Sequence record: OR896820.1
Source: Escherchia phage Stokescottia
DNA length: 64,000 nt
Strand: one strand, 5' to 3'
Part shown: piece after piece, positions 1,147 to 64,000 of the stretch
Layout: each line of letters begins with the position of its first letter
Numbering within the stretch: the stretch's first letter is position 1
Made by a program: the position numbers and the translations under genes
Notes under the pieces: model-generated
Databases searched by the model: none
What the model saw: the letters and a program-made list of their open reading frames with translations, nothing else
What the model was told of the DNA's origin: nothing

Positions 1147-1225
1147 ACTGTCAATTAACTGGAAAGATTAGGTAATAATCCGAGCACTAATAGCCCGGAT
1201 TATAGAGTTCAGCTAATAAAAATCA

Positions 1226-1615: not shown

Positions 1616-1624
1616 CCTGCCTCC

Positions 1625-2053: not shown

Positions 2054-2055
2054 AT

Positions 2056-3959: not shown

Positions 3960-4058
3960 AGCTTTCTCCTCTCAAATTTATAAATCAATTATACATAAAT
4001 TTTTGGCTGAAAGCAAATAAAATAAAAGCCAGGTCGACTAGCAACCCGGCTGATTAGC

Positions 4059-9733: not shown

Positions 9734-9742
9734 TAAAAACAA

Positions 9743-9770
9743 GGAGATCTTCGGGTCTCCTTTTTCTTTG
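9743..9770 (+). terminator. rho-independent terminator after nrdA
   Basis: Hairpin GGAGATC-TTCG-GGTCTCC followed by T-run. Confidence 0.65.
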
Positions 9771-9779
9771 AAATTTTAC

Positions 9780-9809
9780 TTGCTAATCGCTACCAGATTT
9801 GCTATAATA
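9780..9809 (+). promoter_or_regulatory. sigma70-type early promoter
   Basis: TTGCTA 9780-9785, TATAAT 9804-9809. Confidence 0.55.
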
Positions 9810-9839
9810 TTCCTGAAATAGTGAGAAAGAGGAAAATCA

Positions 9840-47632: not shown

Positions 47633-48246
47633 TGTTTACACAACAACCTATTCAAGTAGTACCGGATCATGAACTGAATACGTGGGATTATAGCTTTAAA
47701 GATTTAACCGCTACTGTACAATTTAAGTCTATGAAGCTAACATTTGCACACAATGACCTTAGAGCATGTAAAGATCTTGAGGATAAGCTCGAAGATGCTC
47801 GTAAGATTTTTGGCAAGGCTCGCATCCCAGCTGATAATCTAATTAACGCATTAATCGATGCAGGGTACAAACTTGTGAAGACTGAGGTGAACCGCCCTAG
47901 TACTCCAGTGACTATTAGAGATCCGTGGCAGTCCGGGACAATCTCAATGCTGAATAACTCCGATAAAAGATTAATGTCGGATATGCACAATGTTCCTTGT
48001 GGGGGTGTGGTAAGTAGTACGCAGTCATATAAGTTTGTGGAAGATTACGGCCCTTCTGTACAGTTGAAACATACTCAAGAAGCTTTTGAATCTGATATGC
48101 GAAGCGTAGCACCTGCGGATGCTGGAGTTTCTAGGAGTTCTGTTTGTACTATTCATTTTAATAATCCTAATAAACATGGAAGTTTAGAAGATGCTATTAT
48201 GGAGGCGTTGGGAGCTGCTATTAATGAAGATAAGAGGGGTAATTAA
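47632..48246 (+). CDS. hypothetical protein
   Basis: ORF track. Confidence 0.5.
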   Translation: MFTQQPIQVVPDHELNTWDYSFKDLTATVQFKSMKLTFAHNDLRACKDLEDKLEDARKIFGKARIPADNLINALIDAGYKLVKTEVNRPSTPVTIRDPWQSGTISMLNNSDKRLMSDMHNVPCGGVVSSTQSYKFVEDYGPSVQLKHTQEAFESDMRSVAPADAGVSRSSVCTIHFNNPNKHGSLEDAIMEALGAAINEDKRGN

Positions 48247-49136
48247 TGGGATTTTATAGTAATAGAAAACCAAAAGGTGTAACTGGTAAATTCGCAGTTG
48301 AAGAAAGACCTTTTCCACCAGTCGATGTAGAGAAACTACGTAAACTTCTAGAAATGCTAGAAGGTTGCCATGAACGTTGTTATTCTGAACTCTCTTTAAA
48401 TGAAAAACGTGTTGTTGAGATGTTCTGTATTCGTTCAGCTAGAACAGCTAAAGGTACTTCTCCAAAAGATGAAGTAAAAGAATACAGAGTTCTAGTGATG
48501 CATGCTTGGGCACAACGTTTTGCAGTTCATTCGCTTCAGGAATGGTTTAATCTTCCTGCATATAAAGATTTCCATGTTTACGAAGATGAAGTTATGAATT
48601 ATAATGAGTTATATGGTTTGTCCTTCAAAAAGACAGGCTCACCGATGCATGATGCACTCAATTCATTCCCTGATCATTACCTTCCAGTTCGTGAATACAG
48701 AGATCGTGAAGGAAATAAACCCTGCTTCACTATTTGGAATAAGTCTAAGACGATATCTGATCTAGATAATTATTGGTTCCGCACAAAAGAAGGATTCCTA
48801 GGAACAGAACCTTTACCTAAGGATCTCAAACCTATCCTTCCTCCTGCGAAACCTAAGCATGAAGTAACGATTGCTATTAATAGAATAATTCTAGGAGCAG
48901 ATGATCTTACTAAACAAATCGCCGCAGTTATCGCAGTTCTGTTTGATGGTACAAATTCTTCTACACGTTATGAGAAGCTAACGGATAACAAATTGCAGAT
49001 ACCTAACGAGTTGTATGAGAGTTCGTGCAAGATCTATGATAACTTTAGTAAAGTAGATTACCCCGTGAGATCCATCAAAGAACTCATGGAGTATGCGGAG
49101 ATGGGGATGAAAGGAAATCTCATGTTCGATGAATAA
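48246..49136 (+). CDS. hypothetical protein
   Basis: 296 aa; last plus-strand gene before the repeat region. Confidence 0.5.
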   Translation: MGFYSNRKPKGVTGKFAVEERPFPPVDVEKLRKLLEMLEGCHERCYSELSLNEKRVVEMFCIRSARTAKGTSPKDEVKEYRVLVMHAWAQRFAVHSLQEWFNLPAYKDFHVYEDEVMNYNELYGLSFKKTGSPMHDALNSFPDHYLPVREYRDREGNKPCFTIWNKSKTISDLDNYWFRTKEGFLGTEPLPKDLKPILPPAKPKHEVTIAINRIILGADDLTKQIAAVIAVLFDGTNSSTRYEKLTDNKLQIPNELYESSCKIYDNFSKVDYPVRSIKELMEYAEMGMKGNLMFDE

Positions 49137-49143
49137 ACTCTAC

Positions 49144-49172
49144 TTGACGTTATGATTTCTGCATGTTATAAT
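49144..49172 (+). promoter_or_regulatory. sigma70-type promoter reading into the repeat region
   Basis: TTGACG 49144-49149, TATAAT 49167-49172. Confidence 0.45.
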
Positions 49173-49508
49173 AACTCTATGAAATAACATAGAATAAAGA
49201 GATCCACCCGGATACGGATGGTGGATGGGAAACTTCTATTTCCCCCGTAGCTTGTCGGAGGGCTAGGGAAATCTTAAGAAGTTTTGTACCATCTCACGCA
49301 ATTCGTATCCCAGGGGTGGAGCATCTCTTCCAATCTTTGGGGATCTTATACTTAAATTAAAGGTAAAACTTTTGACCACATAATTTACATTTAAGATGAT
49401 ACACCGGTTGCCGCCATTCTTCCTAGGATGGCACAACACTTTCTAGTAGACTCCTAAGTTTCTAGGAATAGTTGAACACTAACTCTAGAGTTTACACTAA
49501 ACTTTAAA

Positions 49509-50230
49509 TCGGATTTGCACATGTTCTAGGGCAGTTTTTCACCTACTATAAATACCCTAGGCCGGTTTTCCTATACAGGGCGGTTATTTCTAGGAGACAT
49601 TTTTTGAAAACACATTTCCAGAAATTACTGTCGGATTTGCACATTGTGTTTCTAGAAATTTATGGTCGGATTTGCACAATTGCCTAAGTTTTCATGGACA
49701 CATAATCTCCTGAAAATGGCAGCATTATTTCGGGCCGAAGGCCCATGATTGCCTGAGTTTTTAGAGCCACAGAAATTTTCACTTGTCAAGCTATTTTGCC
49801 CCATTTTGCTAATAAAATTTTACTTTATCTCGCCCCAAGCCCAATTAACCCAAATTATCTCAACTCTTCCCCAAAAACGCAGCAAATCAGGTGCCCCGCA
49901 CCAAATATGCTGCCCCTCTAGCTTCTCCCTCTATTTTCTCTCGCTCTCTCATCTTCTCCCCAAACTCACACAATCACACGCCCTCTCATCGAAGTCACAA
50001 AAATCTTGTCGGATTCGCACATCTTAATCCTAGAAAAACCATGTCGGATTTGCACATACCCCACAGGATTCGAACGCAGTTCGAGATTGCTGGAGTTTTT
50101 GGGAAAATTCATTGTCGGATTTGCACACTATAAAAATTTTTCGGGTCGGATTTGCACACTACCAAAAATTGTCGGATTCGCACATACACGCCCGCACGTA
50201 ACACCCGTGGAGCAATGTCGGATTTGCACA
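49509..50230 (+). repeat. array of nine direct repeats GTCGGATT(T/C)GCACA with irregular spacing
   Basis: Copies at 49509, 49630, 49665, 50008, 50043, 50114, 50145, 50171, 50217; all same orientation. Confidence 0.85.
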
Positions 50231-50233
50231 AAA

Positions 50234-50255
50234 GCGCAGGGCAATTGCCCTGCGC
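50234..50255. repeat. perfect 22-bp palindrome GCGCAGGGCAATTGCCCTGCGC
   Basis: Read directly; immediately follows the last direct repeat. Confidence 0.85.
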
Positions 50256-50470
50256 TAAATACGAATGATAATAAGAATCATTCTCATTTAAAAAGCGGAA
50301 TGAGAATGATAATAATTCGCATTTAGAAAGTGAAACGAGAATCAATCTCATTTAAAAAGTGAAATGATTCTCGTTTAAAAAGCGGAATGAAAATTATTCA
50401 GGAAGTGAAACGATTCTCATTTAGAAAGTGAAATACAAATGAGAATGATTCGCATTTAAGAACGGAAGTG
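50256..50470 (+). repeat. degenerate tandem repeats (~25-30 bp unit, TC[TG]CATTTA[AG]AAAG[CT]G[AG]AA[CT]GA)
   Basis: About seven imperfect units read directly. Confidence 0.75.
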
Positions 50471-50600
50471 AGAAACACTGTTATTTAAGTTATCCACAGA
50501 CTTATTAACAGCACGATTTGACTTGACAAAATTCTAGCCATTTTGAAGCGTTATCAACAGACTTATCCACAACTTATCCTACTGTATAAATATACAGTAT
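50471..50600. repeat. left copy of ~130-bp imperfect inverted repeat with DnaA-box-like motifs and a LexA-box-like palindrome
   Basis: Aligns with the reverse complement of 54490-54620; contains TTATCCACA at 50490 and 50563 and CTGTATAAATATACAG at 50582. Confidence 0.75.
50582..50597. promoter_or_regulatory. LexA-box-like palindrome CTGT-N8-ACAG (also contains TATAAATA)
   Basis: ACTGTATAAATATACAGTA matches the gammaproteobacterial SOS-box consensus TACTGTATATATATACAGTA at 18 of 20 positions. Confidence 0.5.
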
Positions 50601-50965
50601 TCCTACGCAGTGAATAATTCTAATATAGCGTTAAAACGCTCTCAAACGCATTCTAACGCGTTTAATTTTGTTGGGGATACTAAAACAAGGGCAAAATTGG
50701 AGGAGGCTTGAAAATTAGTTAGCCCGCTAACGATCACACAAGGCGACACGTAACACCCTAACCATTAGCAGGCTAACCATCGCGGACGCGGTCAAATGAG
50801 AATGATTATCCTTTGAAAATTGGGGGCACTTCCTGATAGTTGCGCCCCGTGATTATTATAGTAGTGGGCAACCGTTACGCTTTGCCCACTCCCGCCACTC
50901 ATCTTGATGCCTAGACTTGCGACGGCGTACTAAAAACCGCTTGTACCAGTGATTAAACCATCGTT

Positions 50966-51169
50966 TCATAAATCCTCCTCCGGTAGTCGATGCGTGATCT
51001 TCTCCTCTTCCCTGTAGGAGTCTGCCAAATGCTGATAATAACCATCGTGATCATAAATCACTTTATCATACTCGCCACGCTCGACCGCTTGCCGGTTCTC
51101 CGGCGTATCGGGCACGTAAAAAACATCAACCATTGTACTGATTTTGGTTACAACAATTTTATTGCTCAT
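50966..51169 (-). CDS. hypothetical protein
   Basis: ORF track; last gene of the minus-strand cassette. Confidence 0.45.
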   Translation of the reverse strand: MSNKIVVTKISTMVDVFYVPDTPENRQAVERGEYDKVIYDHDGYYQHLADSYREEEKITHRLPEEDL

Positions 51170-51221
51170 AATAACGCTCCGTTACTATATAATCTCATTG
51201 CAATACACCAAAATTATATAG

Positions 51222-51437
51222 TTACTCATATTCTAGCTCGAAAATATCCTCACCATATAATTTGATTAAATCAATTAAATAAAACGCTGTGCCAGTATTA
51301 TTATTTCTTCTTATAAATCTATGATGAGCGTCTTTAAATACATTGAATACATCCCCTATTTTACCTACTCCCCATAAATCCTGTGTTAATTTTACCCGTT
51401 TAACCTTTAGCAACATATTCCAAGTAATTTCACTCAT
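51222..51437 (-). CDS. hypothetical protein
   Basis: ORF track; ATGA overlap with upstream gene. Confidence 0.45.
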   Translation of the reverse strand: MSEITWNMLLKVKRVKLTQDLWGVGKIGDVFNVFKDAHHRFIRRNNNTGTAFYLIDLIKLYGEDIFELEYE

Positions 51438-51778
51438 TGCGCCACCTTTCGAAACGCTGTTTCAATACTATCCGCAGTGGATTGAATATACGCGCCTTTC
51501 ATTATCAGGCGCTCAGTGCATACTTTGCGGAAAATATTAATAAAATCATCTTCATTTTCTGCAATTAATGCTTCACCCATAACTTGAACGTCACAAGATG
51601 CAAAAGTTAAAAATTGAAATGCTAGTTCACGGGCAACGACCGCATTGATTTTATAATGCGCCTTGCCCTCATAAATATTAATAACGCCCTTATAAGCTGG
51701 TGAAAGCTGATTCAAATAGTTTGCTAATAATGCTGGGCGGCAATTAGCAACAAAACGATTGCCCTCATAAATAACCAT
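51434..51778 (-). CDS. hypothetical protein
   Basis: Start at 51778 (MVIYEG). Confidence 0.5.
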   Translation of the reverse strand: MVIYEGNRFVANCRPALLANYLNQLSPAYKGVINIYEGKAHYKINAVVARELAFQFLTFASCDVQVMGEALIAENEDDFINIFRKVCTERLIMKGAYIQSTADSIETAFRKVAQ

Positions 51779-51901
51779 TTGACAGCCTCCCAATTAGATA
51801 GCCAGATAATAACATAAAGATCCCCAACGAAATGGGGTCATTTTTGAATAAGGTGGCGGTAAAACCGCCAACCATTGCAAGGGCAATAACGATAACGCTT
51901 T

Positions 51902-52114
51902 TCATAGTACCCCACGAAACGCAGCGTAAAAGGTGGCAAAGTGTTTAACCGTTTCAGCGATCACGTTGCCGCGCTTATCAAATTTTTTCTCGGTAACACG
52001 AAAGGCATTTTTGTTACGTGCTACATATTCGATTTTACAATCTTCCCGCTCGAACGTGTTAACATCCACCAGCTTAAAGCCTTTCGAACGTGCAAGAGAA
52101 ACGTTGCGGATCAT
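51902..52114 (-). CDS. hypothetical protein
   Basis: ORF track. Confidence 0.45.
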   Translation of the reverse strand: MIRNVSLARSKGFKLVDVNTFEREDCKIEYVARNKNAFRVTEKKFDKRGNVIAETVKHFATFYAAFRGVL

Positions 52115-52116
52115 TT

Positions 52117-52299
52117 TTATTCTCCTTTACTAGTCATGCAGCCCAGCAGATAAGAAAATACAGCAATGCCAGCACCAATAGTAACCATTGGTTTTGTATT
52201 TACTAGACCGCAGTAGGAATCCTGAATACCATAAGCGGTGGCGAAAAGAGTCAAAATAGCGCCCAAGATACCCGCCAGAATAGCTCGAAAAATAACCAT
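52117..52299 (-). CDS. small membrane protein
   Basis: Two hydrophobic helices. Confidence 0.45.
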   Translation of the reverse strand: MVIFRAILAGILGAILTLFATAYGIQDSYCGLVNTKPMVTIGAGIAVFSYLLGCMTSKGE

Positions 52300-52348
52300 T
52301 TGTAATACTCCCCTAGTTAGTGGGGCGAAAGTAACGCCCCGTTATTAA

Positions 52349-52579
52349 TTACATTAAAACAATTTTTGCCGCTTGTTTTTTGGTACAGTGTTCCGCTTTC
52401 AGGGTATCCAGCAAAAAGCCAGCCGTTTGCTGATCGATTTTATCGGCGTTGTATAGTTCTTGGATGGTGTTATAAGTTTTAGCAATGCCGAACTCCTGCA
52501 CCATGTCATGAATGATGACGCGGTTAGACACCCAGCCTTGAGCGGTAAACAGATGACTAGCAGAAGAATAAGCAACCAT
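52349..52579 (-). CDS. hypothetical protein
   Basis: Start at 52579 after RBS GGAGG. Confidence 0.5.
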   Translation of the reverse strand: MVAYSSASHLFTAQGWVSNRVIIHDMVQEFGIAKTYNTIQELYNADKIDQQTAGFLLDTLKAEHCTKKQAAKIVLM

Positions 52580-52684
52580 TTTAAGCCTCCAAATTTTTGG
52601 GAAAATTTTCAATCCACCGTTTTGGTGTAAAGGCATTATAACAAAAAAGGCCGCCATAAAAGGCGACCTTTACAAAACTTTACA

Positions 52685-53179
52685 CTAAACTACCTGTAAG
52701 GATTCAACATTGAAACATCGTTTCAGTTCGTCATGCAAGATAGCATATTCATCCCATCGGGTACTATCAGGAATATAAACAAGCTGTTTTAATCGGTTTG
52801 CGTATATTACCGCTTTATTGCCAATTATTTCCGCGCCACCATGTTTAATAATTAATTTCATGACGGAATTAATAGGATCGCCGCCGTTTACATATGCGCC
52901 GGATTTACTCAATTGATAATGATAAAGGCTTGCATATACGTTTTCATTTTCATACCATTCGCCCGATTCCTCGTCTTCGTAACCATCGCTACCAAAACGA
53001 GAAGCGTTATCAATAGCCATTTCATGAGCGAAAGCGTCCAGATCACAACCAGCGGGAACAAAGTGTTCCTCCGTCCAACCTTCCCCGCAATAGCCAGTAT
53101 GACAATCGACCAAAATGATCATATCATGTTTTGCCGTGCTCACTTCTCCCAGTGAGAAGCCATATTTTTCTTCTGACAT
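52685..53179 (-). CDS. acidic hypothetical protein
   Basis: Start at 53179 after RBS AGGAGG; Cys/His cluster VDCHTGYCGEGW. Confidence 0.55.
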   Translation of the reverse strand: MSEEKYGFSLGEVSTAKHDMIILVDCHTGYCGEGWTEEHFVPAGCDLDAFAHEMAIDNASRFGSDGYEDEESGEWYENENVYASLYHYQLSKSGAYVNGGDPINSVMKLIIKHGGAEIIGNKAVIYANRLKQLVYIPDSTRWDEYAILHDELKRCFNVESLQVV

Positions 53180-53243
53180 AATTAGCCTCCTATTAATTAA
53201 CAAGGGAATAGTAAAGCGGGGAAACAATCCCCGCTAAATATTA

Positions 53244-54230
53244 TTACTCGCTTTCGGTGTTAGTAGTAAAAGTAGAAATATCAATACCTTTCACCATTTC
53301 ATCAATCATTTCAGCAATATTGAAACTCTGTACCATTTCCAACATTGCCGCTTCCATTGCCGCCCCTGCTACCGCTTTCGCCTTTTGGTTAGTCGGGGCG
53401 TACTGGTCAACCGCTACACTCAGCAGGTTAGCGATCACTACACGACCAATCGGCGTATCAATATAACCTTTAATCATAAACGGTGCTTTTTTAGCCGCTA
53501 CTTTCGTGATTTGAGTTAGTGCAATTTTACCCGCTTCCAGTTTTGCAGCGTTTACAACAGCGGATTTATTAGCGGCAACGATGTTAGCAATCTTGGTCAT
53601 GGTGTTTTTTCCTTTGTTTTCAGTAGTTTGAGTGTTAGAATTTACAGCCTGATTTTCAACGTAAATACTTTCTTCTCTTTCGAAAGAGAATCCCGCACTT
53701 TCGACGTCGCCATCATATACATACGGGTATAATTCCGAGGGTAACAAAAAATTACCGTCGCCATCAAAAGCCATTATAGCGGTATATTGAGATCCGTCAT
53801 TATCCGGCTTATACCATCCAGCAGGTAAATACTTCCAGATAACATCTAAAAATCCCTCAATGCTAGAAAGTCCATTTATCAGATCAAGTCCAATAAGCTC
53901 AAAACCATTTATATTAAATGATTGACGGCCTGAATTGCTATGATACGCAACAATATTATTACCCTGCGCAACAATAAAATCGGTATCCGGCCCCGCTCCC
54001 CTGCCTGTAAAGATATGGCAATCCCGATTATATAAAACTAGCGTTGCCCCTTGCTTATATAACGGTAGAAAACTATCCATATCATAGGCGTCATACTCAT
54101 CAAAAAAGTTTTGATGAATAGTTTCAACCTTGTTAATAAAATGTTTAATGCTGGTTGACTTGCTACCGTCCAGCAGGTTGCGCAATGCACCTTTTAAAAC
54201 GGTGGCATTATCAGGTTTAAAAAGCCTCAT
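53244..54230 (-). CDS. hypothetical protein (first gene of cassette)
   Basis: Start at 54230 after RBS GAGGGAGG; ~330 aa with globular N-terminal half and Ala/Lys-rich helical C-terminal half. Confidence 0.55.
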   Translation of the reverse strand: MRLFKPDNATVLKGALRNLLDGSKSTSIKHFINKVETIHQNFFDEYDAYDMDSFLPLYKQGATLVLYNRDCHIFTGRGAGPDTDFIVAQGNNIVAYHSNSGRQSFNINGFELIGLDLINGLSSIEGFLDVIWKYLPAGWYKPDNDGSQYTAIMAFDGDGNFLLPSELYPYVYDGDVESAGFSFEREESIYVENQAVNSNTQTTENKGKNTMTKIANIVAANKSAVVNAAKLEAGKIALTQITKVAAKKAPFMIKGYIDTPIGRVVIANLLSVAVDQYAPTNQKAKAVAGAAMEAAMLEMVQSFNIAEMIDEMVKGIDISTFTTNTESE

Positions 54231-54489
54231 TTGTTCGGCCTCCCTCGTTAATCGGTGAGTGAATGATATAGATATTTGTTCACTAGGGGCAAGAAAAAAG
54301 AAAATGTTTTTTATTCCTTGCCTAGCGCCTAATTTTATGCTAACCGCGCAGCGGTGTAGTAAAGAGCAAAACACGGTGAAGCCACCAGGCCGACGCATTG
54401 AGGCTTTGCTTTAATATTACCTTGCAGCGTTTAGCTCGTTAGAATGCGATTTAGGCCGCTTAAAATTGATTGCAGTCGTTAACACTACC

Positions 54490-54620
54490 TTTTTACCCTG
54501 TATATTTATACAGTAGAATAACCTGTGGATAAGTCTGTGCAAAAGTCCTTATATCGCCGCCTATCGTGTCAAATCTTTTTGTGCTGTGGATAACATTGTG
54601 GATAACTTAAATGATAGTGG
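54490..54620. repeat. right copy of ~130-bp imperfect inverted repeat
   Basis: Reverse complement aligns with 50471-50600; DnaA-box-like 9-mers at 54524, 54585, 54597 and palindrome CTGTATATTTATACAG at 54498. Confidence 0.75.
54498..54513. promoter_or_regulatory. LexA-box-like palindrome upstream of the minus-strand cassette
   Basis: CTGTATATTTATACAGTA; on the minus strand reads CTGTATAAATATACAG about 285 bp upstream of the cassette start. Confidence 0.5.
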
Positions 54621-54639
54621 TTCTCACTTAGGCCGATGG

Positions 54640-54880
54640 TTTCTTATAGTTATTATTTACTGTAGTTATTATTTATTATAATTATTATTTCTCATTAATT
54701 TATATGTATATTATATATTATGTAATAGTTAGTTGGCTAATGAGATTTTCCGTGATTAATAGTCTGCTAATAATTTAATCCGTTACAATCCACCAGCATG
54801 ATTATCATCCTAGCAATTATTAGTCTGCTATTCTTCCAATACACACTAGCAAATAAAAGTCAATTAATTTATTTCATAAA
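54640..54880. other. strongly AT-rich block (possible DNA-unwinding element)
   Basis: Runs of TTATT/ATTAT with almost no G or C; flanked by DnaA-box-like motifs. Confidence 0.5.
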
Positions 54881-54886
54881 ATAAGT

Positions 54887-54923
54887 AGTTATCCACTGGA
54901 AAATAAAAGTCAAGTGGATAACT
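54887..54923. promoter_or_regulatory. palindromic pair of DnaA-box-like motifs (GTTATCCAC-N18-GTGGATAAC)
   Basis: Read directly; operator-like inverted repeat. Confidence 0.55.
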
Positions 54924-55368
54924 AGGAAAATTTCATTTTTGCTTTTGGGGATAAGTTATCAACAAGGCTAGAATGCGCCTAAAACGCTCCAGAACGCAAT
55001 AAAGTTTTTAGCCATCCCATCATAAGGGGATAGGCCGTTTATCGCTACCACGAGCTTTTTAGATTTTGTCAAGTAGGGCAAAGCAAATATAAATGAAAAA
55101 ATTACTTGCCTATCTGCTCTGTTTTGTGGTATTCGCGCGCCCGTTTCTTTTAATTTTAGGCCGTCGCCGGACGTGGTGCGGTGAATTTTGTCTTTACGTT
55201 TCTTTACAAAAATAGGGTTGCGCCATTTTCGGGAATCCCCTATTATTTATCACGTAGGGCGGCAATGACGAACTACACGGCGGGAAGTTTACCGCCGCGC
55301 TCTTTAAAAATTGGGTACATCTTAAAGCCTATCGGCGGTAAACTTATTCATTATAAGGAATCGACGAT

Positions 55369-55572
55369 ATGAAACAAACTTTATTGATCACTGGCAAGCC
55401 TAGCAAGGCACTAGATAGCAAAACAAAAAATTTGTTGACAGTAGCGCAAAGATCGGTAAAATATCGATTCACGCAGTACAAGAAAGGTCGCCAGCAAGGT
55501 TTAGAAATGATCTGGCGAAATATTATGATTGACCTGAAAGAAAATCATAAAAAATCTCAAAAAATTGTTTGA
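55369..55572 (+). CDS. small basic protein
   Basis: ORF track; RBS aggaa. Confidence 0.4.
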   Translation: MKQTLLITGKPSKALDSKTKNLLTVAQRSVKYRFTQYKKGRQQGLEMIWRNIMIDLKENHKKSQKIV

Positions 55573-55800
55573 CACCCTAGCCGATAGGCTTTAAGATGTA
55601 CCCAGTTCGACAAGAGCGATAACTTGATAAAATTTGACGGTCGGCACTTACCATAATGTGTCCCGCCCCCTAACTGGGATATAGCGGCCTACGTGGAGTT
55701 CTTTAAATTGATTATATTGGCGAGCGGATTGTTACTTATTACCTGCTACTTTCTAGCAGGTAATGCGGAACAATCCCCTAAATAACTTGGAGTTTATACT

Positions 55801-56052
55801 ATGCAAAACGTTATTACCGCGCCTAAAATTGGTCAATCCGTCTTCATTCCTTTCGTTACTAAAACGGATGAATTAACCGGAAAAGCCGAACGTATTAAAG
55901 GCGCGGCGCTTATGCCGTTTGATACAATCGACGCGGTATACGCTGAAACGGAACGTAGTAACAACGGCAAACCCGTTTTTAGCGTTCGCGTTAAATCCGG
56001 CGACGTTGTAAAGGTTGTTCAACGTAACGAAAAATGGGAAGCTGTTTTATAA
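55801..56052 (+). CDS. hypothetical protein
   Basis: ORF track; conserved upstream motif and GGAG RBS. Confidence 0.5.
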   Translation: MQNVITAPKIGQSVFIPFVTKTDELTGKAERIKGAALMPFDTIDAVYAETERSNNGKPVFSVRVKSGDVVKVVQRNEKWEAVL

Positions 56053-56150
56053 TCTAGTGTTAACTTTATATCCCCCTTATTTCAGGGGGATATAACGATT
56101 AACATTAAGTTAATCTAATCCCTTAAATTAAACAAACAGGAGTTTATATC

Positions 56151-56558
56151 ATGACTAACGCTAAAACCGCAAAATTTGCATGGAATGAAGAAAACACTCA
56201 AAAAGCTGTTTCCATGTATCAGCAATTAATCAACGAAAACGGTTTAGATTTTGCAAATAGCGACGGCCTGAAAGAGATTGCAAAAGCAGTAGGCGCGGCC
56301 TCCCCCGTATCCGTTCGGTCAAAATTGACCAGTGCAAAAGCCTATCAAAAAAGCGACAAGCCGCGCAAAGTTGGCGGCGGTAGTTCAATCCGCAAGGCTC
56401 ACTATGTGCGCGTTATTGCAAAACACGCTATCGATTCCGGCATTATCAAAGACGCCGACGATCTGGCAAGCCTTGAAAGTGCAAAATTGGAAACACTGGA
56501 CGCTGTAGCGCAATTGTTAGGCGTTGCCGATGAAGTGAAACAGGCCGCAGGGGAATAA
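56151..56558 (+). CDS. pre-early-type small protein (A2-like by size and position)
   Basis: 135 aa directly upstream of the A1-like gene; assignment by synteny and size only. Confidence 0.4.
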   Translation: MTNAKTAKFAWNEENTQKAVSMYQQLINENGLDFANSDGLKEIAKAVGAASPVSVRSKLTSAKAYQKSDKPRKVGGGSSIRKAHYVRVIAKHAIDSGIIKDADDLASLESAKLETLDAVAQLLGVADEVKQAAGE

Positions 56559-56648
56559 TAGTTATATCTTGCCCCCTTCTAGTGAGGGGGCAATAATATA
56601 ACTGTTTAGCGATAGTTATTTTCTTCCCTTAAATCAGGAGTTTTAAAA

Positions 56649-56846
56649 ATGATTTTCTTTCCTACTGAATCCTTAATTCTAGGCTTGTTTATTATGGCGG
56701 CCTCGTTATTGTTCGCTTATTTTCAAAATGATTTAGATTCGTATTATTTTAAACGCAAATCTAAATTGGCAAAGCGTTTAGGTCTGATTTGTTTTATTGC
56801 CGCCGTTGCTTGTGGTGTTAGTTCTAGCCTAGTGCCTTTAAATTAA
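56649..56846 (+). CDS. small membrane protein
   Basis: Two hydrophobic helices. Confidence 0.45.
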   Translation: MIFFPTESLILGLFIMAASLLFAYFQNDLDSYYFKRKSKLAKRLGLICFIAAVACGVSSSLVPLN

Positions 56847-56937
56847 TGTTGCAAATTATAACGCCTATTATTGGAGGCGTTATATTTGGCAATATTGCCA
56901 AAATTGAATTTAATCCCTTTAATGGAGTTTTATTACT

Positions 56938-58608
56938 ATGATTATTTCCGCAGAAAAACAAACCGTTATCCTGAAAATGGCCGCTGATTTCAATTTCTAC
57001 GGTAAACGCCTGCGCGCCACTAAATTGGAAGTTTGTGACGATATTTCGAAAGCGGTATACGATACTACTAAACACTCCACCACTATCTGCGACTGGCTGG
57101 AAGCAAATAAACCAGCGAAACCGAAAGCGGCAAAAGTAGCAAAAGCCATTAAAAACGATGAGCGCCCCGAAGCGGCTGGGATTGTTTCTAGTACCGTGGA
57201 ACAGTGGGAAGTAAAACAAGGTAAACGTTTTATTATTACGTCGATTCAAAATAATACTTTCCCGCATAAAAACTTTTTAGCCGCGCTGGAGCAATATGCT
57301 AAATTTATCGGCGCTGATTTGCTTGTTTCTAAGTATATTTATAATAAAAACGGATTCCAAAATGGGGAAGGTGCTGATGGGATCAAATATGATCCCGCTT
57401 TCGATAAATATATTTGCAGCAAAAACGTGTTTTTAAATAACCGCCGTTTCGCTTTCATGGCTGAAATTAATGTTTTGCCAACCGCAGATTATCCGCTTTC
57501 TGGATTTGCAGAAACTGCAACGGCTTTAAATATCGAGGGTCTGGCAATTGGTCACGCTAAAATCACCGCCGAAAGCGTGCCAGCTTTAAAAGGTGAAGTA
57601 GTGCGCCGTATGTATTCAACCGGAACGGCAACGCTCAAAAACTACATTCAGCAGAAAGCAGGACAGAAAGCGGAAGCACTTCATAATTTTGGCGCGCTTA
57701 TTGTTGAGTTCGACGACGACGGGGAGTTTTTTGTTCGCCAGCTTGAAACAATGGACGAAAGCGGCATGTTTTACGATTTGAATATTTGCGCCACTCCTTC
57801 GGGATGTTTTGAAACGTCGGGGCATGTTTTAGGCTTGCAGTATGGCGATATTCATGCAGAAAAACTAGATGAGGCTTGCGCTCAAGCGTCTTGGGGTCAT
57901 GGTGATACTTATGGGCTTGTGGATATTCTCAAACCGAAATATCAGTTTGTACATGATGTGCATGATTTTACATCCCGCAATCATCATAACCGCGCTTCTG
58001 GTGTATTCCTAGCGAAACAGTACGCCGCCGGACGTGATAAGGTTATTGATGATCTTATCGATACGGGGCGCGTGCTGGAATCAATGGAGCGTGATTTTTC
58101 TCAAACAATCATTGTTGAATCAAATCACGATTTGGCGTTATCCCGTTGGCTGGATGATCGAAATGCTAACATCAAAGACGATCCAGCAAACGCCGAACTA
58201 TATCACAGCCTAAACGCTGCAATCTATGCGGCTATTGCAAAGCAGGACGATACTTTCAACGTGCTAGATTATGCCTTGCGTAAGGTAGCAGGTTGTGAAT
58301 TTAACGCCATTTTCCTGACCACTGACCAATCGTTTAAAATTGCAGGCATTGAATGCGGCGTACACGGTCACAACGGCATAAACGGCAGCCGTGGCAATCC
58401 TAAGCAGTTTAAGAAATTGGGCAAGTTAAACACTGGTCATACTCATACGGCAAGCATTTACGGCGGCGTATATACCGCTGGCGTAGCAGGTAGTCTGGAT
58501 ATGGGTTACAACGTTGGCGCGTCAAGCTGGACGCAAACCCATTTAATTACATACGCAAACGGTCAGCGCACTTTGATTGACTTTAAGAATGGTAAATTCT
58601 TTGCGTAA
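56938..58608 (+). CDS. A1: A1-like pre-early protein with C-terminal metallophosphoesterase domain
   Basis: 556 aa; C-terminal half has GDIHAE, HDVHD, SNHD, GVHGHNG, TGHTHT blocks in calcineurin-like order; size matches what I recall for T5 A1. Confidence 0.55.
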   Translation: MIISAEKQTVILKMAADFNFYGKRLRATKLEVCDDISKAVYDTTKHSTTICDWLEANKPAKPKAAKVAKAIKNDERPEAAGIVSSTVEQWEVKQGKRFIITSIQNNTFPHKNFLAALEQYAKFIGADLLVSKYIYNKNGFQNGEGADGIKYDPAFDKYICSKNVFLNNRRFAFMAEINVLPTADYPLSGFAETATALNIEGLAIGHAKITAESVPALKGEVVRRMYSTGTATLKNYIQQKAGQKAEALHNFGALIVEFDDDGEFFVRQLETMDESGMFYDLNICATPSGCFETSGHVLGLQYGDIHAEKLDEACAQASWGHGDTYGLVDILKPKYQFVHDVHDFTSRNHHNRASGVFLAKQYAAGRDKVIDDLIDTGRVLESMERDFSQTIIVESNHDLALSRWLDDRNANIKDDPANAELYHSLNAAIYAAIAKQDDTFNVLDYALRKVAGCEFNAIFLTTDQSFKIAGIECGVHGHNGINGSRGNPKQFKKLGKLNTGHTHTASIYGGVYTAGVAGSLDMGYNVGASSWTQTHLITYANGQRTLIDFKNGKFFA

Positions 58609-58664
58609 TTAAATTATTACCCTAGCGGCTTGAAATATAGCCGCTATTACAGGAGCTAAATTAA

Positions 58665-58943
58665 ATGGCTATTAAAATTAATCTTCCCAACGTTAAAAAC
58701 ACCGCCGATACATGGTCGATTGATACTATATTGCGCGGCACTGTATACCGCAATTTAAAAGATAATAATTGTTATATTTATCAAAATGAATTAAACGGCC
58801 ACACTTATATAATTGAGTCCGATGGTTTTTGTTCTTTTGAGACTGATTATGAAGCGAAAGATCATATACAGGCAAATGATATTCCTGACGTATGGAAAGA
58901 AACAAATCTCGCTTTTGTTGTAAGTCTTGAAGCTAACAAATAA
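58665..58943 (+). CDS. hypothetical protein
   Basis: ORF track. Confidence 0.45.
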   Translation: MAIKINLPNVKNTADTWSIDTILRGTVYRNLKDNNCYIYQNELNGHTYIIESDGFCSFETDYEAKDHIQANDIPDVWKETNLAFVVSLEANK

Positions 58944-58981
58944 ATTAAATCCCTTATTAAATTAATTGGAGTTTTATAAAT

Positions 58982-59374
58982 ATGAAAAAGCAAAATATTC
59001 CTTTCGATCGCGCTCAATCCTCAATTGTTCTGGTTTATTCTAATGGCGAGCGTTATCACGTCGAGGCAGGGCACGTTATTGATGAATTATTAGACTTCAA
59101 TGACGCTTTACAGGTTACTACCTTTGCCTATACGCAAGGCCGCGCAAGTAGTTACATTAAGGCCGCAGGTGTTTATGTTGATACGGTGAAACAAGAAACG
59201 ATTATCATCGACGCCGTAAAATCCGGCCTTGCCTTTGCAGTTGTCGCGCCTTGCCCCGCTTGCCTCGATGATCACCTAGCGAGCGCAAAGGTATATACCT
59301 GCGCGGGTATTCGTTCCCATGTATCCGGCGAAGATATTAGTTTTATTGCTGATGCATTGGCTTATGGTCTTTAA
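58982..59374 (+). CDS. hypothetical protein
   Basis: ORF track. Confidence 0.5.
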   Translation: MKKQNIPFDRAQSSIVLVYSNGERYHVEAGHVIDELLDFNDALQVTTFAYTQGRASSYIKAAGVYVDTVKQETIIIDAVKSGLAFAVVAPCPACLDDHLASAKVYTCAGIRSHVSGEDISFIADALAYGL

Positions 59375-59453
59375 TAGTTGATTTATTATTGCCCGCTGAT
59401 AAATAGCGGGCAATGCTGAATTAATCTAATCCCTTTAATGGAGAACGTAACAA

Positions 59454-60188
59454 ATGAATAAAGCTATTATTAATTCTTTCCGTAATTTCCCGCATATTTC
59501 CCGCGTCATGATTTGGGATTTAGACGGCACTATCATTAATTCTTTCCATCGTGTAGCGCCTTGCTTTGATAGTGAGGGCAATTTAGATTTAAATAAGTAT
59601 AAAAATGAAGCCTGCAAACATCATTTAATAATGCAAGATACTTTATTGCCATTGGTTGAATATATGCGCCAGTGCATGAATGACGCAAATACTTTAAACA
59701 TTATTTGCACCGCTCGATTGATGAGCAAGTCGGATTACTATTTCTTGCGCAAACAAGGATTGCGAGGGCGTGGAAATAGCAATATCCGCGTGTTTTCCCG
59801 CGATACACTGCACAAATATTTTGAGGCTGATAAAGTTAGCGAAATATACCACAGCAAAGACGCAGTTTATAAATCTTATTACTTTGAGCTATTTAAACAG
59901 CTATATCCGAATGCTGATTTTACAATGATTGACGATCATAAAGGCGTGCTATCAGCGGCGGCATCATACGGGTTTAAAACGCTGGACGCGCAAGCCGTTA
60001 ACGATATTCTATCAATCGGCGTGGCATTGATAGGTGAAACCTTTATCGATGAATCTCTCGACGATGATAATGATTATCAGTTCCTAGCTGATCGCTTGAA
60101 ATTATGTTGGGAAAGTATGACCGAAGAAGAACGCGCAGAATATAGTTGCAGCCCGCAACAATATATTGAGAAATTAAAAGTTGCGTAA
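59454..60188 (+). CDS. dmp: HAD-family phosphatase (5'-deoxyribonucleotidase Dmp-like)
   Basis: N-terminal MIWDLDGTIINS matches HAD motif I; 244 aa in a pre-early-like context; symbol by analogy only. Confidence 0.45.
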   Translation: MNKAIINSFRNFPHISRVMIWDLDGTIINSFHRVAPCFDSEGNLDLNKYKNEACKHHLIMQDTLLPLVEYMRQCMNDANTLNIICTARLMSKSDYYFLRKQGLRGRGNSNIRVFSRDTLHKYFEADKVSEIYHSKDAVYKSYYFELFKQLYPNADFTMIDDHKGVLSAAASYGFKTLDAQAVNDILSIGVALIGETFIDESLDDDNDYQFLADRLKLCWESMTEEERAEYSCSPQQYIEKLKVA

Positions 60189-60201
60189 TAATTAAAGTTG
60201 A

Positions 60202-60239
60202 AATAGTCACGGTGTGTAACGATAACATGCCGTGACTAT
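60202..60239. terminator. palindromic hairpin between convergent genes
   Basis: ATAGTCACGG...CCGTGACTAT inverted repeat. Confidence 0.5.
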
Positions 60240-60345
60240 TAGCTTGCTAAGTACCGGGCGGTAATGAGACTCATTCTCATCTGGGAGGCCACTGGACACA
60301 CCTCCATGTGTAATCTTATGAAATTTGGCAAAAGTCAAATTAGCG

Positions 60346-60561
60346 CTATTTACGGGCTGACTGCCTGAGAATGGACTGCCATAGATGGTCAGTCTTAACA
60401 AGATTATTGATGTACTCAATAGCTTCACCAAATCTCATAAATCCTTCTGGAATTTCCGAAGACTTAGGAAAAACTTGTAGCATCCCTTGGGTGATACCCA
60501 TCTTTTCAAGTTCTTCTTGAGTTATCTCAAACTCCCCGAAAAACCGCCCGAATTCTTTCAT
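60346..60561 (-). CDS. hypothetical protein
   Basis: Start at 60561 (MKEFGRFF). Confidence 0.4.
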   Translation of the reverse strand: MKEFGRFFGEFEITQEELEKMGITQGMLQVFPKSSEIPEGFMRFGEAIEYINNLVKTDHLWQSILRQSARK

Positions 60562-60803
60562 GAGCTTCTCCTGTCTACTGGCTTGTCTCCTGATTCTGAC
60601 ATACGAAATCTCTTCCGCGACGCCCGAGATCCATCCGACCACTCCCGTTCAAACTCCGCACGTTTCTCGTCAAACTTCCGCTCCCTTTCCGCAATCTCCC
60701 GCGACACTTCCGCAATATATTTACGATGCTTGTTGATTGCCGCAGTCGTCCCGAAAACTCCCGCGAGTATCCCGATAATAAAAGCAATTATAATACTAAA
60801 CAT
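60558..60803 (-). CDS. membrane-anchored basic protein
   Basis: N-terminal TM helix then Arg/Glu-rich tail. Confidence 0.45.
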   Translation of the reverse strand: MFSIIIAFIIGILAGVFGTTAAINKHRKYIAEVSREIAERERKFDEKRAEFEREWSDGSRASRKRFRMSESGDKPVDRRSS

Positions 60804-60990
60804 CTAATTCCCTCTCAATTTGCAGAATACGGGTGCTATCACAACGTTGCAGTAGTACTAGCTTTTCTAGAGCAACCTGTTGTTGTTTTACCTGGGCTTC
60901 TAGAGTTTTTAGGCGGAGATACACGATACGAGAGACAATGAGGATTACCCAGACTAATATTACTATTAGTGTAACTGTCACTTCCACCAT
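60796..60990 (-). CDS. membrane-anchored coiled-coil protein
   Basis: N-terminal TM helix then coiled coil. Confidence 0.45.
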   Translation of the reverse strand: MVEVTVTLIVILVWVILIVSRIVYLRLKTLEAQVKQQQVALEKLVLLQRCDSTRILQIERELDV

Positions 60991-61398
60991 TTACGCTTCT
61001 CCAATAGTAAGGTTTCAATTCTAGCTAAGTGATTATCTAAAATACACTGCCCAATAATCACAATCCCTAGTAGCGCAATAATTACCCATTCCATTAAATC
61101 CACCCCGCCATAGCTGCTAGCCAAAAACCTACGAAAATAAAGAATAAGATAGTTCCGAATCCGAAACTATTTACCCAGCTATCATATACCTCTCCACGTC
61201 TGCTCTTTCTTTTATTTGACATATCTTTCATGCTCCAGTAAATATGATATTTTAAAATATTTTATAGTTTGTGCATAACCAACCATGCTCGTGACTTCCT
61301 AGAGGGCTTTTCACTTTCTTGCATAGTGTTTTCTGCCAATATACCATCCAAAAAATAAAAAATTTAGTTTACTTGGATGTCTTTTTGTTTTATACTAA

Positions 61399-61665
61399 TT
61401 ACAAGTAATTAGATTGTTCTAGTTTAAATTTACAATCACCATATTTAAGATCAAACTGACTGAGATCCCACCACCCAAACTTAGTACGGAGCTGTACTAC
61501 TGGAAAGCGATCTCCCTTAATACGAACTTTTTGAACCTTGAGGCCGTAATGTTCTTCTCCCGCACCACCAAAAGATTTTACAAATCCCGTACAAAATGGT
61601 TTAGGAGCAGGTGCACAACCAGATAACATAACTGCGGCAACTAGTGCAATCACAAACTTTTTCAT
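61399..61665 (-). CDS. llp: small lipoprotein (Llp-like lytic-conversion/superinfection-exclusion candidate)
   Basis: Signal peptide with lipobox LSGC; 88 aa; divergent from the adjacent receptor-binding gene. Confidence 0.5.
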   Translation of the reverse strand: MKKFVIALVAAVMLSGCAPAPKPFCTGFVKSFGGAGEEHYGLKVQKVRIKGDRFPVVQLRTKFGWWDLSQFDLKYGDCKFKLEQSNYL

Positions 61666-61750
61666 ATTTATCTCTCCATTTCTAATTTATGAATCTATTA
61701 TAGCAAAATAGAGGGATGAAAGCAAATACATTTTTATAATAGGAGATTAT

Positions 61751-63508: not shown

Positions 63509-63518
63509 AGGAGGAAAT

Positions 63519-64000
63519 ATGGCAAATGATGTATTAGTACCGGATCTTATGTCCCCTGAAGGGATGGATGTAATTGAAGCTTATTTACAGTGTGGCAGTG
63601 ATGTGCCTTCTGCCGCACGTAGTCTTGGGATGTCCGAAATTGCTTTTCGAGATATTATGAATCGTAGTGAAGTTAAGAACTACTTAAACGATATTTTTAT
63701 GGAGAGTGGTTTCCGTAACAGAGATCGTTTATTTGGTGTTCTAGATGAAGTTATCAAGCGTAAACTAGAGGAACTAGAAGAGACCGGCATGGGTTCTGAC
63801 CAAGATATTATGGATATTCTCTGGAAGGCACATAAAATGAAAATGGAAGAGATGAAGATGATGGTAGAATTGGAGAAAGTGAAGGCAGCAGCCCGTACTC
63901 CAGCTAACCAGACCAACATCCAGAATAATATTATTGCTGGAGCTGGGGATCAAAACTACATGGACTTAATTACTTCCCTAGCTACTGGAGGTAAGAAGTA
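63519..64000 (+). CDS. HTH-containing protein, possible terminase small subunit (3' end beyond window)
   Basis: Open to window end; N-terminal helix-turn-helix-like [17 protein letters not shown] then coiled coil. Confidence 0.35.

What the first reader, a model, noticed from the sequence alone, without database searches (positions are those of the whole stretch)
50256..50470. Degenerate tandem repeats adjacent to the iteron array
About seven imperfect ~25-30-bp units (TC[TG]CATTTA[AG]AAAG[CT]G[AG]AA[CT]GA) sit directly between the palindrome and the left inverted repeat. Together with the direct repeats and DnaA-box-like motifs this gives three distinct repeat classes within 1.1 kb, a density typical of origins or packaging/injection signals rather than coding DNA.
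Basis: seen in the sequence. Interest (0 to 1): 0.55.

Follow-up and report, generated by a model that had tools for sequence, protein, structure and literature searches.

The report
Fur-box array in T5-like injection-stop region
The degenerate tandem repeats are real and correspond to the already catalogued repeats of the phage T5 'injection stop signal', but each unit matches the binding site of the host iron regulator Fur, which gives a testable host-protein candidate for how T5-like phages pause DNA injection.

Summary
The window comes from a T5-like phage (Demerecviridae) and runs in reverse orientation to T5. The finding at 50256-50470 is a real, non-coding tandem array. It is the homologue of T5 'direct repeat C copies 1-4 / palindromes E-I'. 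These lie inside the annotated injection stop signal (iss), near the inner end of the long terminal repeat. The array sits between the nick-bearing palindrome J and the DnaA-box inverted repeat. As an element it is therefore already described, though its function is called unknown.

I learned a 19-bp matrix de novo from 14 E. coli K-12 Fur-regulated promoters. Its seven best hits in the 64-kb window all fall here: six in the array and one at 50795. They score 18.3-22.2 bits, against a median of 16 bits for real Fur boxes. Shuffles of the region give 0.009 hits, and 49 kb of other phage DNA gives none.

The same arrays occur in T5, Klebsiella, Yersinia, Pectobacterium and one Vibrio T5-like phage. 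They also occur in unrelated Phapecoctavirus and Certrevirus phages, with unrelated spacers. Serratia phage Slocum lacks them.

Best reading: an array of host Fur-binding sites that is not visibly at a promoter, next to DnaA boxes, where first-step transfer ends. Fur binding and any role in the injection stop are inferred, not shown. No paper I could search links Fur to T5.

The parts
50256..50470 (.). Whole degenerate tandem array. It is the homologue of T5 'direct repeat C copies 1-4' and palindromes E-I. GC content is 29%.
   Evidence: TRF; pattern search; T5 annotation; blastn to T5; stops in all six frames.
50264..50288 (.). Two overlapping Fur-box-like 19-mers offset by 6 bp: 50264-50282 (20.0 bits) and 50270-50288 (20.5 bits). 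The classical consensus matches 16/19 at 50267-50285.
   Evidence: Scan with the matrix learned from E. coli Fur promoters; consensus search.
50299..50323 (.). Two overlapping Fur-box-like 19-mers offset by 6 bp: 50299-50317 (18.3 bits) and 50305-50323 (22.1 bits).
50334..50352 (.). Fur-box-like 19-mer AACGAGAATCAATCTCATT (18.9 bits).
50355..50430 (.). Three short 23-bp units that carry truncated, half-length Fur-like motifs (e.g. AATGATTCTCGTT, AACGATTCTCATT). The best full-length score is 8.3 bits. This is the part whose copy number varies among close relatives.
   Evidence: Sequence; alignment of 19 relatives with gaps at 50343-50390.
50432..50456 (.). Fur-box-like 19-mers 50438-50456 AATGAGAATGATTCGCATT (22.2 bits, the best in the window) and 50432-50450 (11.3 bits).
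50795..50813 (.). Isolated Fur-box-like site AATGAGAATGATTATCCTT (18.7 bits), on the far side of the DnaA-box inverted repeat, next to the end of the pre-early operon. Spc35, DT57C, BSP22A and phiR201 have it (18.8-24.2 bits). T5 does not.
50233..50256 (.). Perfect palindrome AGCGCAGGGCAATTGCCCTGCGCT, the homologue of T5 palindrome J, which carries the major 7.9% single-strand nick. On the minus strand it reads as a hairpin followed by TTTTGTG.
   Evidence: I8; T5 annotations.
49509..50231 (+). Nine copies of the iteron TCGGATT(T/C)GCACA (T5 'direct repeat D'). They straddle the inner boundary of the terminal repeat.
   Evidence: D5.
50466..50600 (.). Inverted repeat IRD'-spacer-IRC' with paired DnaA boxes: TTATCCACA at 50490 and 50563, TTATCAACA at 50551, and TTATTAACA just after the 50490 box (about 50502).
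   Evidence: Davison 10.1101/866236.
49764..49777 (.). Approximate inner end of the long terminal repeat. The array lies about 480-700 bp inside the repeat, so a virion genome carries it twice.
   Evidence: Mapped from T5 LTR end 10219 and Spc35 TR end.
54524..54628 (.). Second inverted copy of the DnaA-box cluster (T5 'Repeat Region 2'), with an abutting weaker Fur-like site at 54610-54628 (15.1 bits).

Best explanation
The repeats are an array of binding sites for the host ferric uptake regulator Fur. There are five or six full 19-bp Fur boxes, often as pairs overlapping by 6 bp, plus three truncated units. The array lies inside the conserved non-coding 'injection stop signal' region at the inner end of the terminal repeat of a T5-like phage.

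Proposed mechanism (inferred, not shown): the left end of the genome enters the cell first. When this stretch reaches the cytoplasm, pre-existing iron-loaded Fur dimers occupy and oligomerise over about 200 bp. This happens directly beside the four DnaA boxes, and a further Fur site sits on their other side. The result would be a host-protein/DNA complex at the point where first-step transfer ends. That complex would hold or mark the DNA end, and could also block RNA polymerase reading out of the pre-early operon, until the phage proteins A1 and A2 allow second-step transfer. Occupancy would depend on host iron status.

What is shown: the sequence identity of the sites, their statistical support, their position and their conservation. 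What is inferred: that Fur binds them. What is speculative: any role in the injection stop.
For: 1. A palindromic 19-bp matrix was learned de novo (300 random starts) from 14 E. coli K-12 Fur-regulated promoter regions, without any phage sequence. It converged on AATGATAATCATTATCATT, which is the classical Fur box shifted by 3 nt.
2. Leave-one-out scores of the real promoters have a median of 16.05 bits and a range of 3.3-20.4. The seven best hits in the 64-kb window score 18.3-22.2 bits and all lie at 50264-50456 or at 50795.
3. Controls: 5000 dinucleotide shuffles of the region give a mean of 0.009 hits at 14 bits or more, and never more than 1, against 6 observed. Window 1-49000 has no hit at 12 bits or more. 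In 68.8 kb of E. coli DNA outside the training promoters there is no hit at 14 bits or more.
4. Hits occur at 6-bp offsets and unit lengths differ by 6 bp. This matches the hexamer register of extended Fur operators (established knowledge of the Fur box).
5. The same clusters (up to 24-25 bits) occur in T5, Spc35, DT57C, BSP22A, Klebsiella phage Sealy, Yersinia phiR201, Pectobacterium My1 and Vibrio PG07. They also occur in every one of the 39 IMG/VR loci with A1 at 65% identity or more that cover the region. Many distinct site variants differ only at the degenerate positions.
6. In Vibrio PG07, and in the unrelated Phapecoctavirus anhysbys and Certrevirus PBES02, the spacers are unrelated in sequence but the 19-mers keep the host consensus. 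This points to a host protein.
7. The flanking genes converge on this region, so the sites are not obviously operators of a flanking gene.
8. The calculated first-step shear point of T5 (about 9618 in AY587007; Davison) falls inside a 21.2-bit site at 9612-9630.
9. The stop needs no phage protein synthesis and does not occur with FhuA proteoliposomes. Davison states that the host protein responsible is unsolved.
Against: No binding experiment exists, so everything rests on sequence.

Fur is not known to be needed for T5 growth. The genome-wide loss-of-function screens described in Mutalik 2020 name fhuA, and fur appears in that text only in connection with fhuA repression.

Serratia phage Slocum keeps the DnaA boxes and iterons but has no Fur array. 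Vibrio phage D138 has a single site. Fourteen distant A1-bearing metagenomic loci have none. The array is therefore not universal among phages with A1/A2.

Phapecoctavirus and Certrevirus are not known to inject in two steps, which argues for a more general role than an injection stop.

A protein bound to DNA already inside the cell does not by itself explain how further entry is halted.

Among close relatives the whole non-coding region is 85-99% conserved, so sites are not more conserved than spacers at that distance.
Confidence: 0.6

Rival explanations
1. The 19-mers are sites for a phage-encoded DNA-binding protein, for example A2, which is needed with A1 for second-step transfer. Their resemblance to the Fur box would then be mimicry or coincidence.
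For: A2 is annotated as a DNA-binding protein of unknown specificity, is encoded in the same terminal repeat, and acts on this step. The spacers within one phage are also repeated, which could reflect a longer recognition unit.
Against: A2 shows no significant similarity to E. coli Fur (E = 0.28). It has no Pfam family and no solved relative. tblastn finds A2 homologues only in 105-128-kb Demerecviridae, not in the roughly 150-kb Phapecoctavirus and Certrevirus phages that carry the same arrays. The motif equals the host consensus to within the variation seen in real Fur sites.
Confidence: 0.12
2. The boxes are ordinary Fur operators of one or more promoters inside the array. These would drive an iron-regulated non-coding RNA on the minus strand that ends at the palindrome J hairpin, which is followed by TTTTGTG.
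For: Promoter-like hexamer pairs occur on the minus strand at 50420-50393, 50334-50306 and 50292-50265. Palindrome J reads as a terminator-like hairpin on that strand. Weak sub-threshold Rfam sRNA hits lie on the minus strand and end at about 50230.
Against: All promoter matches are only 9/12, and Fur boxes contain -10-like hexamers by their nature. The Rfam hits are far below gathering scores (25.9 against 100 bits). The nearest candidate start site would give a transcript of little more than the hairpin. No transcript data are available.
Confidence: 0.1
3. The array is the AT-rich unwinding or architectural part of an iteron-type replication origin or of the packaging/terminase recognition region at the terminal-repeat boundary. 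Fur would then be at most an accessory bending factor.
For: Iterons (nine copies), paired DnaA boxes and a 29-30% GC stretch lie together within 1.1 kb. The iterons straddle the repeat boundary where terminase must cut. In the right-hand repeat copy the array lies about 0.5-0.7 kb from the genome end. Serratia phage Slocum replaces the array with a different AT-rich repeat.
Against: AT-richness does not explain the matrix scores (shuffle controls). T5 origins were mapped near the genome centre according to Davison. No initiator gene is evident next to the region; the flanking ORFs I scanned have no informative Pfam family.
Confidence: 0.1
4. The array is a Fur decoy. Replicated phage genomes, each with two arrays, would titrate Fur and de-repress iron uptake to feed phage iron enzymes.
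For: There are many high-affinity-looking sites per genome, present twice. Arrays also occur in other virulent phage families.
Against: T5 degrades host DNA during the pre-early phase, so de-repressing host genes would have no template. A single infecting genome offers only about 10 sites. From my own knowledge, a cell holds several thousand Fur molecules.
Confidence: 0.06

Closest known systems
Phage T5 injection stop signal region ('Repeat Region 3'): direct repeat C copies 1-4 and palindromes E-I of AY587007, flanked by palindrome J / the 7.9% nick, direct repeat D, and IRD'-spacer-IRC'
   Same: The sequence is homologous (about 84% over 1.4 kb). The order of elements is the same, as is the position near the inner end of the long terminal repeat, and both are non-coding.
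   Different: The number and length of units differ: 35/29/23-bp units here, and a different set in T5. This phage has an extra isolated site at 50795 that T5 lacks. The T5 literature I could read treats these repeats as of unknown function and discusses only DnaA boxes.
Fur boxes and extended Fur operators of Enterobacteria (e.g. fhuA, ryhB, fecI, fepA-fes, fhuF promoters; the aerobactin promoter as the classical long operator, from my own knowledge)
   Same: They share the same 19-bp palindromic motif, with scores equal to or above those of real sites. Both show overlapping sites in 6-bp register.
   Different: This array is not visibly placed over the promoter of a flanking gene, because the genes converge on it. 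It has six or more sites spread over 200 bp at 29-35-bp spacing. It sits in a virulent phage's terminal repeat next to DnaA boxes.
Iteron-type origins with DnaA boxes (plasmid P1 oriR and pSC101-like; from my own knowledge)
   Same: The combination of iterons, DnaA boxes and an AT-rich repeat stretch is the same.
   Different: No adjacent initiator gene was identified. T5 origins are reported elsewhere. Fur boxes are not a known component of such origins.
Fur boxes carried by temperate phages at cargo-gene promoters (sitABCD of lambdoid prophages, PMC6969025)
   Same: Both are phage-borne Fur recognition sequences.
   Different: Those are single operators at the promoter of a cargo operon. This is a multi-site array in a non-coding cis-acting region of virulent phages.

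Membership tests
T5 iss region repeats (direct repeat C / palindromes E-I) | Sequence homology and same order of flanking elements as in T5 | tested here: met
   blastn aligns T5 9317-10659 with window 50691-49339 at 83.9%. The order terminator, DnaA-box inverted repeat, array, palindrome J, iterons is shared.
T5 iss region repeats (direct repeat C / palindromes E-I) | Located inside the long terminal repeat, close to its inner boundary | tested here: met
   The boundary maps to about 49764-49777 by homology to the T5 and Spc35 annotations. This is by homology only; the termini of this phage were not determined.
T5 iss region repeats (direct repeat C / palindromes E-I) | Non-coding | tested here: met
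   At least 3 stops in every frame; no PHROG match for the overlapping ORFs.
T5 iss region repeats (direct repeat C / palindromes E-I) | Cis-acting arrest of DNA transfer at about 8% of the genome | not testable with these tools
   This needs blender/shear or qPCR assays of first-step transfer.
Fur box / Fur operator | Match to the Fur recognition sequence at the level of experimentally established sites | tested here: met
   Scores are 18.3-22.2 bits against a median of 16.05 for 14 real promoters (leave-one-out). Shuffles give 0.009 hits against 6 observed.
Fur box / Fur operator | Hexamer-repeat organisation (adjacent or overlapping sites in 6-bp register) | tested here: met
   Site pairs 50264/50270, 50299/50305 and 50432/50438. 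Unit spacings are 23/29/35 bp.
Fur box / Fur operator | Metal-dependent binding of Fur | not testable with these tools
   This needs EMSA/footprinting, a Fur titration assay, or ChIP.
Fur box / Fur operator | Overlaps the promoter of a gene it represses | tested here: inconclusive
   The flanking genes converge on the region. Only weak 9/12 promoter-like matches lie inside the array.
Iteron-type replication origin | Iterons, DnaA boxes and an AT-rich stretch together | tested here: met
Iteron-type replication origin | Adjacent initiator gene and demonstrated initiation | tested here: inconclusive
   Only one of the two ORFs bordering the non-coding region (48246..49136) was scanned, and it has no Pfam family; the ORF on the other side (50966..51169) was not scanned. 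The literature places T5 origins near the genome centre. Initiation is not testable here.

The most novel reading that the evidence does not exclude
Host Fur, acting together with DnaA on adjacent boxes, is the long-sought host factor that arrests or holds T5-like DNA at the end of first-step transfer. The two-step injection would then be coupled to the iron status of the host. More generally, arrays of Fur boxes would be a recurrent host-factor module in the cis-acting non-coding regions of several families of virulent enterobacterial phages.
Probability: 0.17. Interest if true: 0.85.

Novelty: new variant of a known kind. Interest (0 to 1): 0.66.

Why it matters
Two-step DNA injection by T5 has been known since the 1960s. 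The cis-acting stop region was sequenced in 1987. As recently as 2020 and 2026 it is still described only as 'rich in repeats and palindromes', with the responsible host protein 'unsolved'.

Recognising the central repeats as near-consensus Fur boxes turns an opaque repeat catalogue into a concrete hypothesis that is cheap to test. The tests are Fur EMSA, a Fur titration assay, and first-step transfer in fur or iron-starved hosts. The reading also links phages that enter through iron-regulated receptors to the host iron sensor. It further points to similar arrays in unrelated phage families. If Fur does not bind, the finding reverts to an already catalogued repeat.

Tried and rejected
1. Matching to the classical consensus alone gave only a moderate cluster, so I replaced it with a matrix learned from real E. 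coli promoters.
2. I looked for stronger conservation of sites than of spacers in an alignment of 19 close relatives. This was uninformative, because the whole non-coding region is 85-99% conserved and only the 23-bp units vary in number.
3. Information content around sites picked by the matrix is biased by that selection, so I did not use it as evidence.
4. A2 as a Fur-like protein: no similarity to Fur, no Pfam family, no relative in the PDB.
5. Known RNA families: only sub-threshold chance-level hits.
6. Coding potential of ORFs 50006..50326 and 50109..50351: rejected.
7. Distant A1-bearing metagenomic loci L060-L073: no Fur-like sites. Their hosts are unknown, and it is not established that those loci contain an iss region.
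8. Literature searches linking Fur with T5, iss or Demerecviridae found nothing. The 2015 Davison review could not be fetched. Wang 2005 and Heusterspreute 1987 are outside the library's coverage and I did not try to fetch them. An older mention therefore cannot be fully excluded.
9. The Fur-decoy idea was downgraded because T5 destroys the host chromosome early.

Full report
**What the window is.** Megablast of 49400-50900 finds 455 phage records. Almost all are T5-like Salmonella and Escherichia phages, and the best is Salmonella phage SE11 at 95%. blastn against T5 NC_005859 shows the window is collinear with the T5 left terminal repeat but in reverse orientation. T5 105-5419 aligns with window 60207-54859, and T5 9317-10659 aligns with window 50691-49339. 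The T5 record annotates 9140-10149 as 'injection stop signal (iss)', with a major single-chain interruption at 9748/9749.

The AY587007 record of T5 names the individual elements:
- direct repeat C copies 1-4 and palindromes E, F, G, H and I at 9468-9637;
- palindrome J (9650-9666) with 'major nick 1, 7.9%';
- nine copies of direct repeat D;
- inverted repeats D' and C'.

The finding at 50256-50470 is the homologue of the direct repeat C / palindrome E-I block. The neighbouring palindrome (50233-50256) is palindrome J. The 'iterons' are direct repeat D. The 'DnaA-box-like motifs' are the IRD'-spacer-IRC' element. The inner end of the terminal repeat maps to about 49764-49777. The array is therefore inside the repeat and present twice per virion genome.

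**The observation.** It is confirmed. TRF finds two adjoining arrays, of period 35 (score 97) and period 23 (score 94). Spacings are 35, 29, 23, 23, 23 and 35 bp. The stretch is closed in all six reading frames. The overlapping mechanical ORFs have no PHROG family. Flanking genes converge on the 1.8-kb non-coding region.

**What the units are.** Reading the units, I noticed AATGAGAATGATT...CATT-type palindromes that resemble the Fur box GATAATGATAATCATTATC. To test this without using phage sequence, I fetched 14 Fur-regulated promoter regions of E. coli K-12 MG1655. These were fepA-fes, fepD-entS, fepB-entC, fhuA, fur, fiu, fhuE, tonB, cirA, exbB, ryhB, fecI, fecA and fhuF. I then ran a random-start, palindromic, one-site-per-sequence motif search (300 starts). 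It converged on AATGATAATCATTATCATT, which is the classical Fur box shifted by three bases.

In leave-one-out scoring, the real promoters reach a median of 16.05 bits (range 3.3-20.4). Scanning the 64-kb window, the seven best hits are:
- 50438 (22.2 bits)
- 50305 (22.1)
- 50270 (20.5)
- 50264 (20.0)
- 50334 (18.9)
- 50795 (18.7)
- 50299 (18.3)

Six of these are inside the finding. The seventh lies 340 bp away, on the other side of the DnaA-box inverted repeat.

The controls are clean. In 5000 dinucleotide-preserving shuffles of the 215-bp region, the mean is 0.009 hits at 14 bits or more, and never more than one, against six observed. Window positions 1-49000 contain no hit at 12 bits or more. 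In 68.8 kb of E. coli DNA outside the training promoters there is no hit at 14 bits or more. Hits come in pairs offset by 6 bp, and unit lengths differ by 6 bp. This is the hexamer register expected of extended Fur operators (established knowledge of the Fur box). The three 23-bp units (50355-50430) carry truncated motifs only.

**Comparative evidence.** The same matrix finds clusters of 18-24-bit sites at the equivalent place in the following phages:
- T5 (9552-9715 of NC_005859, best 24.2 bits)
- Spc35, DT57C and BSP22A
- Klebsiella phage Sealy
- Yersinia phage phiR201
- Pectobacterium phages My1 and DU_PP_V
- Vibrio phage PG07

Each array was never matched in 2000 shuffles. Of 40 IMG/VR loci recovered with the A1 protein at 65% identity or more, every locus that covers the region has 3-8 hits at 14 bits or more within 400 bp. 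The only exception is one whose stored DNA does not reach the array. Dozens of distinct site sequences occur, and they differ mainly at the degenerate positions of the motif.

In Vibrio phage PG07 the iterons are different (TAGAATCCGCACTCACA) and the spacers cannot be aligned. The Fur-like 19-mers and the TTATCCACA boxes nevertheless keep the host consensus.

Arrays of three or four near-consensus boxes at 29-bp spacing also occur in long non-coding regions of the unrelated Phapecoctavirus anhysbys and Certrevirus PBES02. tblastn does not find phage protein A2 in such phages. This pattern is what one expects of sites read by a conserved host protein.

There are exceptions. Serratia phage Slocum keeps the DnaA boxes and T5-type iterons but has a different AT-rich repeat in place of the array. 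Vibrio phage D138 has a single site. Fourteen distant A1-bearing metagenomic loci have none. Among close relatives the whole region is so conserved that sites and spacers cannot be told apart.

**What is known.** Davison's comparative study (bioRxiv 10.1101/866236) describes this 'Repeat Region 3' in 25 phages and emphasises the eight DnaA boxes. It proposes membrane-bound DnaA as the brake. [quoted passage not shown] The word Fur does not occur in that paper.

The paper also states several facts about the stop. The stop occurs without protein synthesis. Complete injection occurs with FhuA proteoliposomes. The host protein responsible is 'unsolved'. The calculated shear point is about 9618. 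In AY587007 coordinates that point falls inside a 21.2-bit Fur-like site at 9612-9630.

[quoted passage not shown] Full-text searches combining Fur terms with T5, T5-like, Tequintavirus or Demerecviridae returned nothing relevant. I could not read the 2015 review, Wang 2005 or Heusterspreute 1987 (the 2015 review could not be fetched; I did not try to fetch the other two).

Mutalik et al. 2020 report that overexpressing feoB or ydiE protects BL21 from T5 and CEV2. They attribute this to Fur-Fe repression of fhuA. Their loss-of-function screens name fhuA, not fur. Fur is therefore unlikely to be essential for growth on laboratory strains.

**Most likely mechanism.** I take as well supported (about 0.75) that these are functional Fur-binding sites. 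From established knowledge, Fur binds such boxes as dimers when metal-loaded and can spread along hexamer arrays.

The sites lie in a convergent intergenic region. They sit beside paired DnaA boxes and bracket them, and they coincide with the end of the first-step DNA. The best-fitting role is therefore architectural. A Fur/DnaA nucleoprotein complex would assemble on the last part of the first-step DNA from pre-existing host proteins. It would hold or mark that end, and could also block RNA polymerase leaving the pre-early operon, until A1/A2 act.

This functional step is inference (about 0.3). It faces three objections: there is no known fur phenotype, Slocum lacks the array, and there is no physical explanation for how a cytoplasmic complex halts entry. 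The rivals are a phage-protein site, an iron-regulated small RNA ending at palindrome J, the AT-rich element of an origin or packaging site, and a Fur decoy. Each is listed with its evidence.

**Verdict.** The repeats are real and non-coding. As an element they are already catalogued in T5. What appears to be new is that the catalogued repeats are near-consensus Fur boxes, used in an unusual non-promoter context. That makes an old open question directly testable.

Noticed in passing
window 49144-49172 (+): Near-consensus sigma-70 promoter-like site TTGACG-17-TATAAT with an extended -10 TG. It lies immediately after ORF 48246..49136 and points into the 1.8-kb non-coding iss region, with no ORF downstream. 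T5 has TTGACA-17-TATCAT at the homologous place.
   Followed up: partly
window 60263-60281 and 60063-60081: The Fur-like site AATGAGACTCATTCTCATC (15.5 bits) lies about 17 nt inside the presumed left genome terminus (GGAGGCCACTGGACA ends at 60298, compare the T5 end ...GGAGGCAGTGGACA). The same 19-mer occurs 19 times among the 40 related loci but not in T5. A second site (14.2 bits) lies inside the dmp gene.
   Followed up: partly
window 50900-64000 versus 1-49000: The terminal-repeat/pre-early part of the window has 8 further Fur-matrix hits at 12 bits or more (e.g. 54610, 56727, 52996). The other 49 kb has none. The first-step DNA as a whole is enriched in Fur-like sites.
   Followed up: no
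window 50490-50571 and 54524-54605: All five perfect TTATCCACA DnaA boxes of the 64-kb window lie in two mutually inverted clusters (T5 Repeat Regions 3 and 2). The second is abutted by a 15.1-bit Fur-like site at 54610-54628.
   Followed up: partly
L074 2501-2583 (Escherichia phage anhysbys) and L075 2463-2577 (Cronobacter phage PBES02): Unrelated ~150-kb phages (Phapecoctavirus, Certrevirus) carry arrays of 3-4 near-consensus Fur boxes at 29-bp spacing in long non-coding regions that also hold other direct repeats. A conserved GC-rich element follows the array in both.
   Followed up: partly
L076 11680-12530 (Serratia phage Slocum) and L077 (Vibrio phage D138): Slocum keeps the DnaA boxes and T5-type iterons but has a different AT-rich repeat (AATAACGTAAGGTGAYTAATGATT) where the Fur array should be. 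D138 has only one Fur-like site near its DnaA boxes.
   Followed up: partly
window 49800-50000: A strongly strand-biased, G-poor and C-rich stretch (GC skew down to -0.65) lies between the two groups of iterons, just inside the terminal-repeat boundary. It is unexplained.
   Followed up: no
window 50233-50256 (-): Palindrome J read on the minus strand is a GC-rich hairpin followed by TTTTGTG. That is terminator-like for transcription coming from the pre-early operon through the array. The scan tool did not list it.
   Followed up: no
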